Positions 1,325 through 7,230 of a stretch of DNA of 52,844 bases are shown in pieces. Position 1 is the stretch's first letter, and every line of letters begins with the position of its first letter. The notes beneath the pieces were generated by a model. That model did no database searches, was not told where the DNA came from, and worked only from the letters and a program-made list of their open reading frames with translations. A program made the translations under genes and the position numbers. The stretch comes from Candidatus Micrarchaeota archaeon UBA95 (GTDB lineage: Archaea; Micrarchaeota; Micrarchaeia; Norongarragalinales; Norongarragalinaceae): positions 1 to 52,844 of the forward strand of contig DALH01000012.1 of the NCBI GenBank assembly GCA_002499405.1, read 5' to 3'.

Positions 1325-1470
1325 GCTTTTTCTTTTCATTGAAATCCCAGCAAACGCTTCCGCGTTTGCGGCACGTGACACTACAAATCAAAGATTTGCT
1401 GTGCCCGTAAACCTTCGAGGTTTACTGGGACCTTCGCGATTCGCCGTGTTTCTTTTTCCAAAAAGAAAAG
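1325..1470. repeat. intergenic multi-hairpin repeat, copy A (second copy at 18170..18330)
   Basis: Hand alignment of 1346..1455 against 18199..18309 gives 4 substitutions plus one 1-nt indel over about 110 nt. It contains hairpins GCAAACGC-TTCC-GCGTTTGC, CAAATC-AAA-GATTTG and GTAAACC-TTCGA-GGTTTAC, plus a terminal TTTCTTT/AAAGAAA hairpin. Confidence 0.85.
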
Positions 1471-1544
1471 TTTGAGTCAGCCCGCCTAACGCGCGGGTTT
1501 TAAATACGCGCTCGGAATAACGCGTTTAGGGAGGCGGAAAGCAA

Positions 1545-1745
1545 ATGTGCTTCACTGAATGGGCGAACAAGAAAGCCAAGAAAATGGACGTTTGGGACAT
1601 CGGGTTCACGAAGCTCGCGGTGTTCTTCTTCACGCTGTTACTCGTGAAGTTCTGGCCGGCAATCGCGTCGCTGGACTGGTACTGGTACCTTGGTTTGGCG
1701 GTCATCGCGGCAATCCGGCCGATGAGCAGGTTCCTCTGCAAGTAA
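1545..1745 (+). CDS. small membrane protein (66 aa), hypothetical
   Basis: ATG is preceded by GGGAGGCGG (SD-like), with TTTAAATA about 40 nt upstream. Two hydrophobic segments (LAVFFFTLLLVKFWPAI, YWYLGLAVIAAI). Confidence 0.4.
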   Translation: MCFTEWANKKAKKMDVWDIGFTKLAVFFFTLLLVKFWPAIASLDWYWYLGLAVIAAIRPMSRFLCK

Positions 1746-1919
1746 AAAGGAATTTGAGTTCGTCCGCTAGGGCTGAACTAGTCTGCCTGAGCCGCGCATG
1801 ATTTTGTAGGGACACACAGAGCGCATTTCCTAGGAAAAATAAACATTAAAACATAAAGTCGTTGAGGGCTTGAGGTAAATTTAATGTAAGTTAGCGACAA
1901 AATGCACGGCCTATTCTTG

Positions 1920-2111
1920 CTATGATTTGTTGAGGACGACGCCCCTAAACAATCCGTAAAATATCAAACCGAACAGTCCCGCTGCTATGAGCAATTGTTC
2001 CGCAGGAACGTTTTTTCCGAAAACTATGGCTCCGCCAAAAAATAAAAAGAACAAAATGGCTGATATCGCTAAGTAACCGATGAAATCGCCGATAAGTTCT
2101 CCCGCGCCCAT
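1920..2111 (-). CDS. small membrane protein (63 aa), hypothetical, inside the low-GC island
   Basis: Two clear TM helices (IGYLAISAILFFLFFGGAIVF and LLIAAGLFGLIFYGLF). An A/T-rich TATA-like motif lies 14-24 nt upstream of the ATG. Confidence 0.45.
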   Translation of the reverse strand: MGAGELIGDFIGYLAISAILFFLFFGGAIVFGKNVPAEQLLIAAGLFGLIFYGLFRGVVLNKS

Positions 2112-2123
2112 CAGACCACCTAA

Positions 2124-2138
2124 TTTACTTTAAATTAC
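2124..2138 (-). promoter_or_regulatory. TATA-box-like promoter motif (shared 11-mer TTACTTTAAAT on + strand)
   Basis: The same 11-mer occurs at 6453..6463 upstream of the RM gene. Both lie 14-27 nt upstream of an ATG, which fits archaeal leaderless transcripts. Confidence 0.35.
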
Positions 2139-2159
2139 ATTAAATTATGCAACTTAAAG

Positions 2160-3533
2160 TTATTTAAAGTTTTCCCGTTCGTAGTAGGCGCCCCTGAACT
2201 TGCCTACCTTGCGCAGTTTGCCTTGTTTTACCAGTTCGTTTAAGTCCGCAATGGCGGTTGGAGACGACACGCCGGTTAGCTTGATCAAGTCTTTGGTTTT
2301 TATCTTGCCGTGAGCTTTAGCGAATACCAGGGCTTGTTGCTGGCGAGGGTTCTCTGACTCGACGGGATGCCGTGGTTTGCCGCTTAAAGGGCCGTATAAG
2401 ACTAGTTGGAACGCATCGCCAAGGTTGTTGAAGTCGGGGTCAGGCAGGTGAGCTTGACGGCATAGCTTAACGATTTTAGGTACGCCCGTGCCCAAGCCTT
2501 CACCTAGCCCGAGGTCTTGCAACAACCGGTAGCACAACGGATTCCGGTGCTTTGGATTTTTGAAGAAATTCTGTTGCGTTTGCCCAGGCAGCAATCCACC
2601 CGGATTGGTGATTACTAGCCGGTCTTCATAAATTTCGGCGCGTATGGGCATCGGGTCGTAGTAATCCCTATGGCCTATGGCGTTGGTGATTGCTTCGCGC
2701 AAAGCCGCTTCTGGGTAATCCGGCACCTCTTCGCGCGTGGTTCCAGCGATTTTCTGCGTCTTTCCAATCTTATCGAGGATTAGCGCATACGTCAAGTCGA
2801 TGAGTTCCGGAATGGTGCTGTTTAACCTTTGGTCGAACGTGATTCTATCCACTTCCTTTTCCTTGCCGCGGTAAACCACTACGCGCGCTTCAAGGTTGTT
2901 GAAATGCTTTGCTTGCTCTTTCGCGAAAAACATTAACGCCACGTTCTTCAAGTAGAAAGAACCGTTGAAGCTCGCAATCTTCAAGCCAGTCAGCCTCGTC
3001 TTCAACTCTTCCGCGTTTCGGGAATTGAAGTCTATCCCGCGTTTCTTGAAATAAGCGGCAAGTTTGCTGAAGTCAAGGTCGTCCAACAGGGCTTGAGTTT
3101 TTTGTTCCTCGAAATTGAGAATGCCTCGCGTCCTGAGGTACGCAACGAGTTCTTCGCCGTAAAGCTCGACGTTCGTAGTGCCTTGCCTGATGAAACAACG
3201 CTTTTTACAATGGCAGAGCGATTGTGAGTGCGCTATCTCTCCCACCTTAAGCACTATAAACGTCTTTCCTTCGTTTTTGATAAACTCTTGTTCTACGCCG
3301 CAGTTGGTGCAATCTTCAAGCGCCTGCCTCACTCGCCTGGATTCTTCGTCCGCGTTCTTCACGCCGACGAGTTCGCCTTTCGACCCTACTCCAATCACAA
3401 TAAGCCCGCCGAAGCTGTTGGCGAACGCGGAAATGCTCTCGCCCAATTTCTTCTGCACGCTGGCTTTAAGCTCAACCGTCGGGCTTTCCCCGCCGGAAGC
3501 AATGCGCTGCAACTCAGCGTAAGAAAACGTCAT
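2160..3533 (-). CDS. AlbA_2 (Schlafen-like) domain / HATPase_c_4 / C-terminal winged-HTH protein (often annotated as RecG-like putative transcriptional regulator)
   Basis: N-terminus ESPTVELK...ISAFANSFGGLIVIGV matches the AlbA_2 signature. The central AITNAIGHRDY motif is typical of the HATPase_c_4 family. The C-terminus DLIKLTGVSSPTAIADLNELVKQGKL reads as a wHTH. Its ATG overlaps the stop of the upstream RM gene (ATGA at 3530..3533). Confidence 0.75.
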   Translation of the reverse strand: MTFSYAELQRIASGGESPTVELKASVQKKLGESISAFANSFGGLIVIGVGSKGELVGVKNADEESRRVRQALEDCTNCGVEQEFIKNEGKTFIVLKVGEIAHSQSLCHCKKRCFIRQGTTNVELYGEELVAYLRTRGILNFEEQKTQALLDDLDFSKLAAYFKKRGIDFNSRNAEELKTRLTGLKIASFNGSFYLKNVALMFFAKEQAKHFNNLEARVVVYRGKEKEVDRITFDQRLNSTIPELIDLTYALILDKIGKTQKIAGTTREEVPDYPEAALREAITNAIGHRDYYDPMPIRAEIYEDRLVITNPGGLLPGQTQQNFFKNPKHRNPLCYRLLQDLGLGEGLGTGVPKIVKLCRQAHLPDPDFNNLGDAFQLVLYGPLSGKPRHPVESENPRQQQALVFAKAHGKIKTKDLIKLTGVSSPTAIADLNELVKQGKLRKVGKFRGAYYERENFK

Positions 3534-6436
3534 TTGACCGCCTCCTCAACAATCCGCCTTTCTTCCGCAGTCAAACCGTACAAGTCGTAAACAAGAGCAT
3601 CGAGATTTTGATCCAGTTCAAAAAACTCTTTTTCTAATCCTGGACGGGCGTCTGTCGGTTTATCCTCCAGCGCCCCGAGTTGCGCGCTTACTTTCGCCAT
3701 TTTTCTTGCTAGCTCAACCAACTTAGTCTTGTTGGCACTGCTCGCATCAACGATTGGGAGTTGCTCTAAATACTGCTTGTTACAAGAGTAGAACCCTCCT
3801 CTAAATGGCGTGCTTATTTTTGTTAGATAAAAGGTAAGCAATTTACTATTGAGAATAGCGGTAACGAACTCGTAGTCATCTTTAGATAGCATAACGCCAC
3901 TAACATCCACATTATCCAAACAAAAATTGCCATCATCATAAACGGCGTTTATTCGATGGGCTAGTCTTGGGATGCAAATCTTCGGAAAACTCTGTTTTGT
4001 TAAATTCTTTGGATAAACGTACGCATACCAGTTCAGTCCTTTCATCTTTCCGTTTTCACGATTTTCTAAAGCCTTCTTATTTTCACGTAGGTATCTTGCT
4101 AGGTTGGGGCATTTTTTTTCTACTTCATCGAATGGTGCAAGATTCGCTTTACTATCCTGAACCCAGTACGGAAAGATTACAAACTGCCGTGTTTTTAGTG
4201 GCTTGTACCGTTTAACGTCTGTACCACTTAGGAGTGGCCGAAGTAAGTCCAGCTCAAGTTTTTCGGACCTGTTTAATGATTTACTAAAAAGTGCGTCGTG
4301 GTTTGAACCGGAGAGTATCATTACTTTATCAGCACTTGTTTGAACGCCAACAAAAATTGATTTTGAAATATCGCCTAGTTTCGGGAATCGCTTGAGCTTT
4401 TCGACGATGGATAGTTGATCGCCTGCTACTAAAATCCAGGGTTCAGCGTCTTTTGGTTGGTTCAACGAGGATTTTCGTAAGTCGGATTCGATTAACGTCT
4501 TTCCGTTGTTTGTATTTGCTTTATTGAATTCGGCGTATTCAAACGATCTGTTTTCTTCATTCTTTAGAAAAAGCAGACAGGTGTATGTGGTGGCTCCAGA
4601 AAAGACTTGGAATTCTTTGAAATCTACTAGTTTATTGAGGGCTTTCTTAGAGCTTATCACTTTGCGCAAACCTTCACCGTATTCTGCGGTGAAAAATTTA
4701 GATGGTAATATGTATCCGAGTACTCCCCCCGGCTTCAATAGTTTAAGCGCCTGTTCAACAAACAAACAATAGATATCGTAATTTCTTGTTGTGGACGAAT
4801 AGTTTAAACTAAAATATTTGACGTCCTTCTCAGCCATAGTTTGTATGCGTACATACGGCGGATTCCCGACAACTACGTCAAATCCGCCATCTTTCATTAT
4901 CCCCTCAAATTCTTTGCTCCAGTTGAAAGCACGGTCTCCAGCAACTGTTGGGTCATCTATTAGCGAGTTGCCGCACTTGATGTTTTCGCGCAAATCCGGA
5001 AGACGGTGCTTGGTTTCAGCGGCTTTCAAGAGAAGGTTGAGTTGCGCGATTTCAACGGCTTTGGGGTCGAGGTCAACGCCGTAAAGGTTGTTCTTTAAAA
5101 TCTTGGTCTTGCGCGTTATTTTAGCCGCTTCACTCTCCGGGTCTAGCTTGGCTTGCGCGTAATTCTTGTCCTTCTTCTTGTAGTAATCGTCCAAAACGTC
5201 GAACGCTTTCAGCAAGAACGAGCCGGAACCGCACGCCATGTCGAGGACTTTAATTTTATCGACCTCGTCCGGCTTCTTGTTTTTCAGCATTTCGCCAAGC
5301 GTATTGCGCACGATGTAATCGACGATGTACGTCGGCGTGTAGTAAATGCCTTGCTCCTTGCGGTGCGCTTCCTTGCTCTCAACCTTCGCGCGTTTATCTG
5401 TTTTCTTGAGAATGTGGCTCAAATACTGCTCGTAAATGTTGCCCAGCACGTCGGCGTCGATGGCTGAAAAATCGTAATGCGTCAAGCCGTCCTTGCTGTC
5501 GTAAAGACCCTTGATTACTTGAGCTAATACTTCGTTGTCTATGTCGATGGTTTCGCACAAGTGCCTTTGCGCCAAGTCGCCGGCATTGAACGTAAACAGT
5601 TTGCTGTTGTACGTCTTGTCGAAATGCAGGTAAATCTCGTTAAGCGCGGAAGTCAGCTTGCCGCTCTTTTTCTCTTCGAATTCACGAACTTTAGGCAAAA
5701 GCGTGGGCGGTTCTATGTTCCGGTCTTCCGCAGTCCTGATGAAAATCAAACGATCGATAATCCGTTGGACTGCCTCGTCGACTTCCTCTTCGGACAAGTT
5801 CTTTCCGGCGTTGTTCTTCACGATGTTTTTTGAAAGCAGGGCGCGATGCTGCATTAGTTCGGAAAGCAGTTGGTCGCCGACTTTCGTTTTACGCAGTTTC
5901 TTGCCCCAATTTAAGGCTGCCGTGTCGAGCAGACTTTCCTGAAACGCAAGTTTTGACAGTAACCATAGTTCGCTGAAGTGCTCTGCGAACTGGTCGAAAG
6001 TAAGCGTTTTGAAGCGAGCGTTTGAGAGGTTGTTGTCCTTGACTTCGGCGTTGTAGATTACGAGCGTTTGAAAGTCGGTTAAAACCGCCCAGCTAGTGCC
6101 CTTGTGCCACGCGTAGTTAATGGCTTGACTGGCGTCTTTCGCCTCGTCCAAGCCCTTATTCAACGCTTTTGCTTCCAAAAAGAACTTGGGAATCCCGTTA
6201 ATCCTGAATGAGTAATCGACGCGTCCTTTGGAAACCTTTTCTTCGTTAATCACTTCGTCAAGGCTGTAATCGTTCTCCATGTCCCAGCCTAAAGCGCGGA
6301 AGAGCGGCGTAATAAACGTCTTCTTGGTTTCCTCTTCGCCAAGCCGTTTTGTTTGCCCGGCTTCCTGAAACTGCTTGAACTTTAAAATCAGCCTCTCAAC
6401 GTCTTTCTTGGCTTGGTCATGTTGGGTGTCAGGCAT
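3530..6436 (-). CDS. Type IIG restriction-modification enzyme: N-terminal PD-(D/E)xK nuclease fused to a gamma-class N6-adenine DNA methyltransferase and a TaqI-like specificity domain
   Basis: N-terminus GRVDYSF...FFLEAKAL is an HSDR_N-like D...ExK nuclease motif. Motif I is VLDMACGSGSFLL and motif IV is VVGNPPYVRIQ. The 968-aa single chain has an MmeI/Eco57I-like architecture. Confidence 0.85.
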   Translation of the reverse strand: MPDTQHDQAKKDVERLILKFKQFQEAGQTKRLGEEETKKTFITPLFRALGWDMENDYSLDEVINEEKVSKGRVDYSFRINGIPKFFLEAKALNKGLDEAKDASQAINYAWHKGTSWAVLTDFQTLVIYNAEVKDNNLSNARFKTLTFDQFAEHFSELWLLSKLAFQESLLDTAALNWGKKLRKTKVGDQLLSELMQHRALLSKNIVKNNAGKNLSEEEVDEAVQRIIDRLIFIRTAEDRNIEPPTLLPKVREFEEKKSGKLTSALNEIYLHFDKTYNSKLFTFNAGDLAQRHLCETIDIDNEVLAQVIKGLYDSKDGLTHYDFSAIDADVLGNIYEQYLSHILKKTDKRAKVESKEAHRKEQGIYYTPTYIVDYIVRNTLGEMLKNKKPDEVDKIKVLDMACGSGSFLLKAFDVLDDYYKKKDKNYAQAKLDPESEAAKITRKTKILKNNLYGVDLDPKAVEIAQLNLLLKAAETKHRLPDLRENIKCGNSLIDDPTVAGDRAFNWSKEFEGIMKDGGFDVVVGNPPYVRIQTMAEKDVKYFSLNYSSTTRNYDIYCLFVEQALKLLKPGGVLGYILPSKFFTAEYGEGLRKVISSKKALNKLVDFKEFQVFSGATTYTCLLFLKNEENRSFEYAEFNKANTNNGKTLIESDLRKSSLNQPKDAEPWILVAGDQLSIVEKLKRFPKLGDISKSIFVGVQTSADKVMILSGSNHDALFSKSLNRSEKLELDLLRPLLSGTDVKRYKPLKTRQFVIFPYWVQDSKANLAPFDEVEKKCPNLARYLRENKKALENRENGKMKGLNWYAYVYPKNLTKQSFPKICIPRLAHRINAVYDDGNFCLDNVDVSGVMLSKDDYEFVTAILNSKLLTFYLTKISTPFRGGFYSCNKQYLEQLPIVDASSANKTKLVELARKMAKVSAQLGALEDKPTDARPGLEKEFFELDQNLDALVYDLYGLTAEERRIVEEAVK

Positions 6437-6451
6437 ATAATCGCACGAGGA

Positions 6452-6466
6452 ATTACTTTAAATAAC
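6452..6466 (-). promoter_or_regulatory. TATA-box-like promoter motif upstream of the RM gene
   Basis: ATTACTTTAAATAAC lies 17-31 nt upstream of the ATG at 6436 and shares an 11-mer with 2125..2135. Confidence 0.35.
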
Positions 6467-6828
6467 CTTAAATATCTTTTCTTTAAAGTTTAAGTGATTT
6501 GGCTTAAAGTAAGAGAAGACGTACATCTGTTTTCCGTGCGTCGGTCTATCACCACTAGCATGAAAATGTATGACGAAAACTAGCTCCAGAACCGCGTTTT
6601 TTCCTATGTTTTTCCTAGGAAATAACGTAGGTTAGGCAATCAACGGTGTTTTTCGTTCGAAATCTCGTCAATTGCCTAGCCGTTTCTGTTGGTCTATGAT
6701 GTTAATTCGCGTCAGTCCGTCCGTCAGTCATCACGAAGTCAGTTGTAACGGGGTCATCATCCGAATCATTCAGGGGAAACGCGTTTTAAATCGTTCTGCG
6801 TAAATGGTTTTCGGTGGGGTGAAGACGG

Positions 6829-7230
6829 ATGCGGGGCATACTGGACTGGTTGAAGGAAGAGGAGAACACGTTTTTCGCGTTGCATGTCGCGGGCTTGTTC
6901 GTTTTGGCGTTCGCCGCGGAGTCGCTTGCACCGGCGTGGACCAAAGTGGTTTACCCGGCCTTGTTGCTGCTGGCGGCGGCGAGCTTCATGTGGAACTACC
7001 CCGTGAAAGCCATTAAGAACCACGGCTTGTTCTCGGAGTACGCCATTGAATCGCGCCTGCTGTGGCTGGTGTTGCTCGGCGCGCTCACCGAGTATTTGGC
7101 ATACGACTTGTGCGAGTGCAAAAACGAGTGGCTGTACGCCGGGGTTGCCATAGTGGCGGGCTTGTTAATAGCGTTTTACAGCAGGAGCCGCCTCCACGAA
7201 AGGATTATTGGGGCGCGGGGATTCAAGTGA
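6829..7230 (+). CDS. integral membrane protein, hypothetical (133 aa)
   Basis: Four hydrophobic helices. Its stop overlaps the GTG start of the next gene (GTGA at 7227..7230). Confidence 0.55.
   Translation: MRGILDWLKEEENTFFALHVAGLFVLAFAAESLAPAWTKVVYPALLLLAAASFMWNYPVKAIKNHGLFSEYAIESRLLWLVLLGALTEYLAYDLCECKNEWLYAGVAIVAGLLIAFYSRSRLHERIIGARGFK

What the first reader, a model, noticed from the sequence alone, without database searches (positions are those of the whole stretch)
2160..6436. Translationally coupled Type IIG RM enzyme and AlbA_2 (Schlafen-like)-HATPase-wHTH protein as a candidate two-gene defence module
The 968-aa protein fuses a PD-(D/E)xK nuclease, a gamma-class N6A methyltransferase (NPPY) and a specificity domain, so it is self-sufficient as a Type IIG enzyme. 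Its stop codon overlaps the ATG of a 457-aa protein (ATGA at 3530..3533). That protein has an N-terminal AlbA_2/Schlafen-type domain, a HATPase_c_4 module and a C-terminal wHTH. Proteins of this type are usually labelled only as putative regulators or RecG-like. The tight coupling suggests they work with the RM enzyme, for example as controller, sensor of modified or foreign nucleic acid, or second effector. A 63-aa two-TM protein (1920..2111) follows with its own copy of the promoter motif. Any functional link between the genes is inference.
Basis: partly seen in the sequence, partly recalled or inferred. Interest (0 to 1): 0.6.

Follow-up and report, generated by a model that had tools for sequence, protein, structure and literature searches.

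The report
Restriction enzyme–Schlafen operon inside repeat brackets
A tiny archaeon carries a mobile 5-kb cassette in which a one-protein restriction-modification enzyme and a Schlafen-type protein (predicted RNA-cutting antiviral) form one operon, and the operon sits between arrays of a 10-base word that follow the Schlafen gene wherever it goes, so that protein probably controls the whole cassette.

Summary
In detail: both genes, all stated domains and the ATGA overlap are present.

- **What the 457-aa protein is.** It belongs to a class named in 2025-26, a prokaryotic Schlafen with a GHKL ATPase ("Schlatpase") and a C-terminal wHTH. The tRNase motif (E16-x4-E21-x-K23) and the ATPase motif (E280-x3-N284) are intact.
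- **How often the pairing recurs.** Seven of 19 orthologues with readable context have a Type IIG gene directly upstream. Five overlap by ATGA and two have a small ORF wedged between. The other 12 are solo, and at least one keeps a relic of the IIG 3' end.
- **Mobility.** Two same-genus comparisons show the pair present or absent as one unit.
- **New cis feature.** Tandem arrays of a 10-bp near-palindrome (AYTTWAAGTW) flank the Schlafen gene family about 100-fold above background. In three of four paired loci with a readable 5' flank, the 5' array lies upstream of the IIG gene.
- **Reading.** The link is real but facultative. Control of the operon through the wHTH, plus a second tRNase layer, is inferred and not shown.

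This scan reached the same reading earlier on other genomes (e1-1506250, e1-4462902, e1-4477907).

The parts
1746..6709 (.). Strain-variable low-GC island (indel relative to the same-genus genome G113)
   Evidence: In G113 the flanks (window 1543-1745 and 6710-7228) lie 113 bp apart. GC is 41-49% inside against 56-59% outside.
6611..6622 (.). 12-nt palindrome TTTCCTAGGAAA near the right edge of the island
   Evidence: There are only two copies in 52.8 kb, and none in 100 shuffles.
6453..6512 (-). 5' array of 10-bp units AYTTWAAGTW overlapping the TATA-like promoter of the operon, 17-76 nt upstream of the IIG ATG
   Evidence: It is the only cluster of three or more near-matches in the 764-kb genome.
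3530..6436 (-). Type IIG restriction-modification enzyme, 968 aa (PD-ExK nuclease, gamma N6A-MTase with NPPY, TaqI_C specificity domain)
3530..3545 (-). Junction: GGAGG (3545-3541), 7-nt spacer, ATGA overlap (3533-3530)
   Evidence: The same ...EEAVK*/ATGA junction is found in L090, L004 and L107.
2160..3533 (-). Prokaryotic Schlafen 'Schlatpase'-wHTH protein, 457 aa (SLFN_AlbA_2 with E16x4E21xK23; GHKL HATPase_c_4 with E280x3N284; wHTH about 395-457)
2125..2172 (-). 3' array of the same 10-bp units, overlapping the Schlafen stop codon. It also lies 14 nt or more upstream of the 63-aa ORF
   Evidence: (I7, D17).
1920..2111 (-). 63-aa two-TM ORF downstream of the 3' array. It is inside the island but is not conserved by sequence
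1826..1837 (.). 12-nt palindrome TTTCCTAGGAAA near the left edge of the island

Best explanation
The region is a horizontally mobile, low-GC cassette holding one operon. The operon encodes a self-sufficient Type IIG restriction-modification enzyme followed by a prokaryotic Schlafen protein of the Schlatpase-wHTH class.

Shown:
- The two genes are co-oriented, overlap by ATGA with an internal ribosome-binding site, and are gained or lost together.
- Arrays of a 10-bp near-palindromic word flank the operon. The same arrays flank this Schlafen gene family whether or not an IIG gene is present.
- The 5' array overlaps the TATA-like promoter in front of the IIG gene.

Inferred:
- The C-terminal wHTH of the Schlafen protein binds these arrays. 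It thereby autoregulates the promoter, and the restriction enzyme is under its control, which is a C-protein-like role.
[quoted passage not shown] The nuclease would then cut tRNA as a second, abortive layer behind restriction.

The link is facultative. The Schlafen gene works alone in most relatives, and IIG enzymes take other partners.
For: - **Domains and motifs.**. E-x4-E-x-K is invariant or nearly so, and E280-x3-N284 matches the RzAgo ATP/Mg ligands E314/N318.
- **Recurrence.** IIG lies directly upstream in the window, G086, G285, G152, G180, G306 and the P0021 contig.
- **Enrichment.** In 401 phylum genomes, 65 carry PF13749 and 140 carry PF07669. I found 6 same-strand adjacent pairs where I estimate fewer than 0.1 by chance.
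- **Mobility.** Empty sites occur in G113, and in G339 and G356. GC of the pair is lower than its flanks in all five loci checked.
- **Arrays.** Density is 19/kb upstream and 25/kb at the 3' end against 0.22/kb elsewhere. The arrays are kept in orthologues down to about 33% identity across archaeal phyla. Unpaired IIG genes show none in the upstream sequences I inspected. The word is nearly unique to the island in the own genome.
- **Lineage-specific words.** Bacterial homologues have different lineage-specific flanking words.
- **Fold.** The wHTH fold resembles DNA-binding AspA, ArsR and MarR.
Against:
- Twelve of 19 orthologues are solo.
- One paired locus (L090) lacks the 5' array.
- Four-nt overlaps are common in this compact genome, so the overlap alone is weak evidence.
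- HisKinase-type Schlafens tested in E. coli gave no protection against the phage panel (PMC13056530).
- The arrays contain TTTAAA, so part of the signal may simply be promoter sequence inherited with the gene.
Confidence: 0.5

Rival explanations
1. Two autonomous defence genes merely share an operon. The Schlafen cassette and the IIG gene were packed together by island formation and genome compaction. There is no regulatory or physical cross-talk, and the arrays serve only the Schlafen gene.
For: - Most orthologues are solo, and IIG orthologues carry other partners: ImmA/IrrE+DUF4411, an EVE protein, and ATPase_2-DUF234.
- The pair label is scattered on both trees.
- Four-nt overlaps are frequent in the window.
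- SLFN-pAgos also show no fixed partner.
Against: - The same ...EEAVK*/ATGA junction is kept at 55-60% protein identity.
- In three of four readable loci the IIG sits between the array promoter and the Schlafen gene, so it is necessarily transcribed from that promoter.
- Co-loss or co-gain occurs in two genera.
Confidence: 0.25
2. RM-guardian model (PrrC/EcoprrI-like, PARIS-like). The Schlafen tRNase is held latent by the IIG enzyme and is unleashed when a viral anti-restriction factor inhibits the enzyme.
For: - A predicted tRNase is embedded in an RM operon with stoichiometric coupling.
- There is precedent: PrrC inside the Type IC EcoprrI locus, and PARIS (PMC12707154).
- A Schlatpase fused to a Type I specificity subunit has been reported.
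Against: - Solo orthologues, including at least one that clearly lost its IIG gene (L104 relic), show the protein needs no IIG partner to be tolerated.
- There is no sequence relation to PrrC.
- In two loci an unrelated small ORF separates the genes.
Confidence: 0.12
3. The arrays are the functional ends or maintenance sites of an integrase-less mobile cassette. The Schlafen-wHTH protein serves the element itself (partition-like or addiction-like), and the IIG gene is cargo or a co-addiction module.
For: - Arrays sit at both ends of the unit.
- The wHTH resembles the pNOB8 centromere-binding protein AspA.
- The gene is patchy (65 of 401 genomes), has low GC and lands among housekeeping genes.
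Against: - In both empty-site comparisons the indel extends 200-450 bp beyond the arrays, so the arrays are not the junctions.
- No recombinase fold was detected.
- Integrases sit next to only two loci.
Confidence: 0.08

Closest known systems
Type IIG restriction-modification enzymes (MmeI / Eco57I family)
   Same: A single polypeptide with an N-terminal PD-ExK nuclease, a gamma-class N6-adenine methyltransferase (NPPY) and a TaqI_C-type specificity domain. It matches the PADLOC IIG model over its full length at 9e-182.
   Different: Here it is the first gene of an operon whose promoter lies in a repeat array belonging to the downstream Schlafen gene family. The recognition site and activity are unknown.
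Prokaryotic Schlafen, pSlfn-HisKinase-HTH class (Perez Taboada et al. 2026, PMC13056530), also called the 'Schlatpase' supradomain with C-terminal HTH (bioRxiv 10.64898/2026.05.29.728809)
   Same: SLFN_AlbA_2 with Ex4(E/D)xK, a PF13749 GHKL domain with E-x3-N, a short C-terminal HTH, and a defence-island context. A published Schlatpase association with Type I RM exists, and I saw it here too (L094, L095).
   Different: Coupling to a Type IIG enzyme and the flanking 10-bp arrays are not described in any paper I could search. No member of this subclass has a demonstrated function.
Controller (C) proteins of Type II RM systems
   Same: An HTH protein co-transcribed with a restriction gene, with repeated palindromic boxes at the promoter.
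   Different: C proteins are about 80-100 aa, have a lambda-repressor-type HTH and are encoded upstream of the nuclease gene. This protein is 457 aa with nuclease and ATPase domains, is encoded downstream, and also occurs without any RM gene.
PrrC anticodon nuclease within the EcoprrI Type IC locus; PARIS
   Same: A tRNA-targeting effector genetically tied to restriction, acting as a back-up layer (PMC12707154).
   Different: There is no homology, the linkage is not obligatory, and no trigger is known.

Membership tests
Type IIG RM enzyme | Nuclease, methyltransferase and specificity domains in one polypeptide | tested here: met
   Pfam HSDR_N/MmeI_N + N6_Mtase/Eco57I + TaqI_C; PADLOC PDLC03604 covers residues 9-963.
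Type IIG RM enzyme | Catalytic motifs: PD-(D/E)xK, SAM motif I, and motif IV NPPY/F/W | tested here: met
   D74...E88-A-K90 and NPPY at 525; DMACGSGSF in the translation.
Type IIG RM enzyme | Site-specific cleavage and m6A methylation | not testable with these tools
   No methylome or enzymology is available.
Prokaryotic Schlafen / Schlatpase-HTH | SLFN_AlbA_2 domain with the Ex4(E/D)xK active site | tested here: met
   PF04326 at 1.7e-15. E16 and K23 are invariant and E21 is conserved in at least 90% of 64 sequences. Fold matches to SLFN11-14 and the SAMD9 tRNase domain.
Prokaryotic Schlafen / Schlatpase-HTH | PF13749 GHKL ATPase with Glu/Asn ATP-Mg ligands | tested here: met
   PF13749 at 1.5e-20. 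E280-x3-N284 is conserved and corresponds to RzAgo E314/N318. Fold matches to PDK and CusS CA domains.
Prokaryotic Schlafen / Schlatpase-HTH | tRNA cleavage and anti-virus protection | not testable with these tools
   HisKinase-type members tested in E. coli gave no protection.
RM controller (C) protein | Small HTH protein encoded upstream of or overlapping the nuclease gene | tested here: not met
   The protein is 457 aa, has three domains and is encoded downstream.
RM controller (C) protein | Repeated palindromic operator at the operon promoter, bound by the protein | tested here: inconclusive
   The arrays are present and family-specific. Binding is untested.
PrrC-type RM guardian | Effector obligatorily embedded in an RM locus, with an ABC-ATPase plus PrrC nuclease domain | tested here: not met
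   Twelve of 19 orthologues are solo, and no PrrC-related domain was found.
BREX (PglX) | PglX score above the family cut-off, plus BrxA/B/C/L neighbours | tested here: not met
   NCBIfam BREX models score 80-146 bits against cut-offs of 400-900. The 4.96-kb island holds only three ORFs.

The most novel reading that the evidence does not exclude
The commonest but functionally uncharacterised class of prokaryotic Schlafens (Schlatpase-wHTH) is a DNA-tethered switch. Oligomers would sit on cognate 10-bp arrays at both ends of their own transcription unit and repress it. In these archaea a Type IIG restriction enzyme has been placed inside that unit. One protein would then act both as the RM controller (timing restriction after transfer to a new host) and as an abortive tRNase layer. 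That would be a new kind of RM control and a handle on how this Schlafen class is kept silent.
Probability: 0.22. Interest if true: 0.75.

Novelty: new variant of a known kind. Interest (0 to 1): 0.58.

Why it matters
Schlafen-GHKL-HTH proteins make up a large share of all prokaryotic Schlafens. No trigger, target or regulation is known for them, and the members tested so far were silent in E. coli.

The flanking arrays give a concrete, cheap hypothesis to test: a cognate DNA site for the wHTH. The Type IIG operons give a natural read-out, namely restriction and methylation under Schlafen control. The same data extend the reported Schlatpase-RM association from Type I to Type IIG systems and to DPANN archaea.

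The comparisons also suggest that the position downstream of IIG genes is a slot for varied second-layer genes.

Tried and rejected
- **Metagenome scan.** A scan for close relatives gave only 4 loci and no new pair.
- **Transcript evidence.** The sequencing-run search for co-transcription was unavailable.
- **Solo-cassette empty site.** The search for L005 against same-genus genomes found no synteny.
- **Wedged small ORFs.** The 158-aa and 134-aa ORFs between the genes in two loci are not homologous to each other (E=20). Neither matches a Pfam family above its gathering threshold.
- **The 63-aa ORF.** It has no sequence relative in any fetched locus.
- **BREX reading.** A BREX/PglX reading of the large protein is rejected.
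- **Single co-inherited clade.** One clade of paired IIG enzymes is rejected (AU p=7e-57). Caveats: the group was named after the tree was seen, and specificity-domain swapping may distort the tree.
- **Arrays as a generic promoter.** This is rejected, because there are only 6 exact TTAAAGTAA sites in 764 kb and 3 of them are in the island.
- **Fusion proteins.** IIG-Schlatpase fusions could not be searched because of the length limits of the homology tool.
Full report
**Observation**

The window belongs to a 764-kb, 86%-complete genome of a DPANN archaeon. ORFs 3530-6436(-) of 968 aa and 2160-3533(-) of 457 aa are present.

The stop of the first ORF overlaps the start of the second as ATGA at 3533-3530. 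A GGAGG lies 7 nt before the ATG.

The large protein matches Pfam HSDR_N/MmeI_N, N6_Mtase, Eco57I (1e-51) and TaqI_C. It matches the PADLOC Type IIG model end to end at 9e-182. D74...E88-x-K90 and NPPY525 are present. BREX PglX models score far below their cut-offs.

The 457-aa protein has SLFN_AlbA_2, HATPase_c_4 and a DeoR/DIP2311-type wHTH. An AlphaFold model (pLDDT 88.7) matches several known folds:
- the uncharacterised DIP2311 structure 3LMM over its whole length;
- mammalian SLFN11/12/13/14 and the SAMD9 tRNase domain in the N-terminal part;
- GHKL kinases in the middle;
- wHTH DNA binders (AspA, ArsR, MarR) at the C-terminus.

**What the 457-aa protein is**

Two recent papers cover this architecture.

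Perez Taboada et al. (PMC13056530) classify 5,930 prokaryotic Schlafens. Fusions to a histidine-kinase-like domain make up 34.0%, and fusions to that domain plus an HTH make up 19.2%. The active site is Ex4(E/D)xK. The HisKinase-type genes they tested gave no protection, whereas DUF262 and Ig-like fusions did.

A 2026 preprint (10.64898/2026.05.29.728809) names the SLFN+PF13749 pair 'Schlatpase'. It reports several things:
- most members are small proteins with or without a C-terminal HTH;
- in RzAgo, ATP binding (ligands E314 and N318) drives tetramerisation and arms a tRNase;
- a Schlatpase occurs fused to, or standing beside, a Type I RM system.

In the window protein the motif E16-x4-E21-x-K23 is present. 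E16 and K23 are invariant and E21 nearly invariant in 64 homologues. E280-x3-N284 is likewise conserved. The protein is therefore a member of a known class whose function is still untested.

**Is the pairing more than chance?**

The protein has a dense orthologous family, mostly in Micrarchaeota. I read the context of 19 orthologues with at least 46% identity.

A Type IIG gene lies directly upstream on the same strand in seven:
- the window;
- G086 (L004/L092);
- G285 (L090);
- G306 (L107, with the Schlafen gene cut by the contig end);
- the P0021 contig;
- G152 (L002/L093), with a small ORF wedged in;
- G180 (L091), with a small ORF wedged in.

All junctions overlap by 4 nt. The two wedged ORFs are unrelated to each other.

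Twelve orthologues are solo. Many sit among housekeeping genes such as tRNA synthetases, carbamoyl-phosphate synthase or DHH phosphoesterase.

In a sample of 401 genomes of the phylum, PF13749 occurs in 65 and PF07669 in 140. By my manual comparison of coordinates, 38 genomes have both domains and 6 show the directly adjacent same-strand arrangement. Random placement in genomes of about 1.1 Mb would give well under 0.1 such pairs by my estimate. Kin are not independent, so this is not a formal test.

Within the order (68 genomes), 5 of 9 close orthologues are paired.

**History of the pairing**

The paired state is scattered on the Schlafen tree, where well-supported branches force at least 4 changes. 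It is also scattered on the IIG tree. Monophyly of paired IIGs is rejected at AU p=7e-57. Two caveats apply: the group was named after the tree was seen, and specificity-domain exchange may distort the tree.

Loss of the IIG gene explains at least part of the scatter. The solo gene in L104/L140 is preceded by a 22-23-codon relic '...ELVYDLYGLSAEESKIVEEAVK*' of an IIG C-terminus. L082 and L088 have weaker relics of the same kind. The junction '...EEAVK*' with ATGA is conserved in the window, L090, L004 and L107.

**Mobility**

In the same-genus genome G113 the two flanks of the window region lie 113 bp apart. The window therefore carries a 4.96-kb insertion-deletion at 1746-6709, holding the IIG gene, the Schlafen gene and the 63-aa ORF.

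Independently, G339 and G356 lack the pair that G285 carries between the same flanking genes.

The pair has 5-10 points lower GC than its surroundings in all five loci checked.

**The repeat bracket**

I compared upstream regions and found a 10-bp near-palindromic unit, AYTTWAAGTW (for example ATTTAAAGTA or ACTTAAAGTA). It occurs in tandem, mostly at 10-bp spacing.

- **Enrichment.** With one mismatch allowed, density is 19.2/kb in the 160 nt upstream of the unit and 24.8/kb around the Schlafen stop codon. It is 0.22/kb in the rest of about 190 kb of loci.
- **Conservation.** The arrays are present at solo orthologues and at archaeal orthologues of only 33-42% identity from other phyla.
- **Position in paired loci.** The 5' array lies upstream of the IIG gene in the window (6453-6512), L004 and L107. 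No array lies between the two genes. L090 lacks a 5' array.
- **Controls.** Upstream regions of about 19 IIG genes without a Schlafen partner show no such array by inspection.
- **Specificity in the own genome.** The exact word TTAAAGTAA occurs six times in 764 kb, three of them in the island. The only cluster is the one in front of the IIG gene.
- **Promoter overlap.** The unit nearest the IIG start contains TTTAAA 17-27 nt upstream of the ATG. This is close to where a TATA box for a leaderless or near-leaderless transcript would lie (my inference).
The 'promoter motif copy' before the 63-aa ORF is the family's conserved 3' array (2125-2172).
- **Bacterial homologues.** They lack this word, but several carry their own repeated word in the same flanking positions, for example ACTAGGAG in L035, TCCCGCCA in L025 and ACCGACCT in L048.

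A word that travels with the gene and changes with the lineage is what one expects of the cognate site of its wHTH domain. Binding itself is not shown.

An earlier follow-up in this scan reached the same reading on another genome (e1-1506250). I found the arrays before I read that note, and it is not independent evidence.

**Mechanism**

Shown: an operon on a mobile cassette, transcribed from a promoter embedded in the Schlafen family's own array.

Inferred, with my estimated probabilities:
- about 60%: the wHTH binds the arrays and autoregulates, which puts the restriction enzyme under Schlafen control;
- about 50%: the Schlafen domain is an ATP-armed tRNase that provides a second layer of defence;
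- about 12%: a PrrC-like guardian relationship, which is unlikely because solo genes, including ones that lost their IIG, are tolerated;
- about 25%: pure hitch-hiking without cross-talk, which remains a serious rival.

**Wider context seen on the way**

IIG orthologues without a Schlafen partner often have other tightly linked downstream genes:
- HTH_3-Peptidase_M78 (ImmA/IrrE) plus DUF4411, in G086, G378 (by matching gene sizes only) and the window genome's own contig C20;
- an EVE-domain protein;
- an ATPase_2-DUF234 protein;
- proteins of 470 and 512 aa with no family match.

Two more distant Schlatpase paralogues in the phylum lie beside complete Type I systems.

**Verdict**

Both components belong to known kinds, and a Schlatpase-RM association has been published for Type I systems. 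I found no searchable paper describing either the Type IIG operon form or the array bracket that places the enzyme under the Schlafen gene's promoter. I rate it a new variant of a known kind, with moderate to fairly high interest. It gives a testable handle on the commonest and least understood class of prokaryotic Schlafens.

Noticed in passing
G000 contig C20, locus L123:1726-6392: The genome's second Type IIG gene (1000 aa) is followed on the same strand by HTH_3-Peptidase_M78 (ImmA/IrrE-like, 383 aa) and DUF4411 (163 aa). The same triad occurs in G086 (L106). G378 (L110) has downstream genes of matching size (374 and 167 aa) that I did not annotate.
   Followed up: partly
L119:5867-7357; L117:5984-7399; L120:1819-3231; L116:2054-3592: Other IIG orthologues carry different tightly linked downstream genes: an EVE-domain protein, an ATPase_2-DUF234 protein, and two proteins with no family match. 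This suggests a variable accessory slot behind IIG genes.
   Followed up: partly
window 1826-1837 and 6611-6622: The 12-nt palindrome TTTCCTAGGAAA occurs only twice in the window, about 80-100 bp inside each border of the 1746-6709 indel. Its role is unknown, and it is absent from the other paired loci checked.
   Followed up: partly
G113:C3:36008-36115 versus window 1328-1371 and 1437-1484: The empty site in the same-genus genome contains pieces of the multi-hairpin intergenic element. In the window that element lies on the other side of the small membrane gene.
   Followed up: no
L104:4930-5003 (same place as L140:6107-6180): A solo Schlafen gene is preceded by a 22-23-codon relic of an IIG C-terminus (...ELVYDLYGLSAEESKIVEEAVK*). 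This is direct evidence that an IIG gene was deleted there.
   Followed up: yes
L090:10693-10857: A 54-aa two-TM ORF starts 52 nt after the Schlafen stop. This is the same position and topology as the window's 63-aa ORF, but with no detectable sequence similarity.
   Followed up: partly
L035, L025, L028, L034, L048, L059: Bacterial homologues of the Schlafen-GHKL-HTH protein are flanked by their own lineage-specific repeated 8-mers, with 4-10 copies found almost only next to the gene.
   Followed up: partly
L094:5502-14295 and L095:4963-18276: More distant Schlatpase paralogues in two genomes of the phylum lie beside complete Type I RM systems (HsdS, HsdM, HsdR).
   Followed up: partly
contig (no DNA held) and L101:4111-4926: Tyrosine-recombinase (Phage_integrase) genes lie just upstream of one paired and one solo Schlafen locus. 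The paired one also has DUF3800 and Shedu (SduA_C) genes downstream.
   Followed up: no
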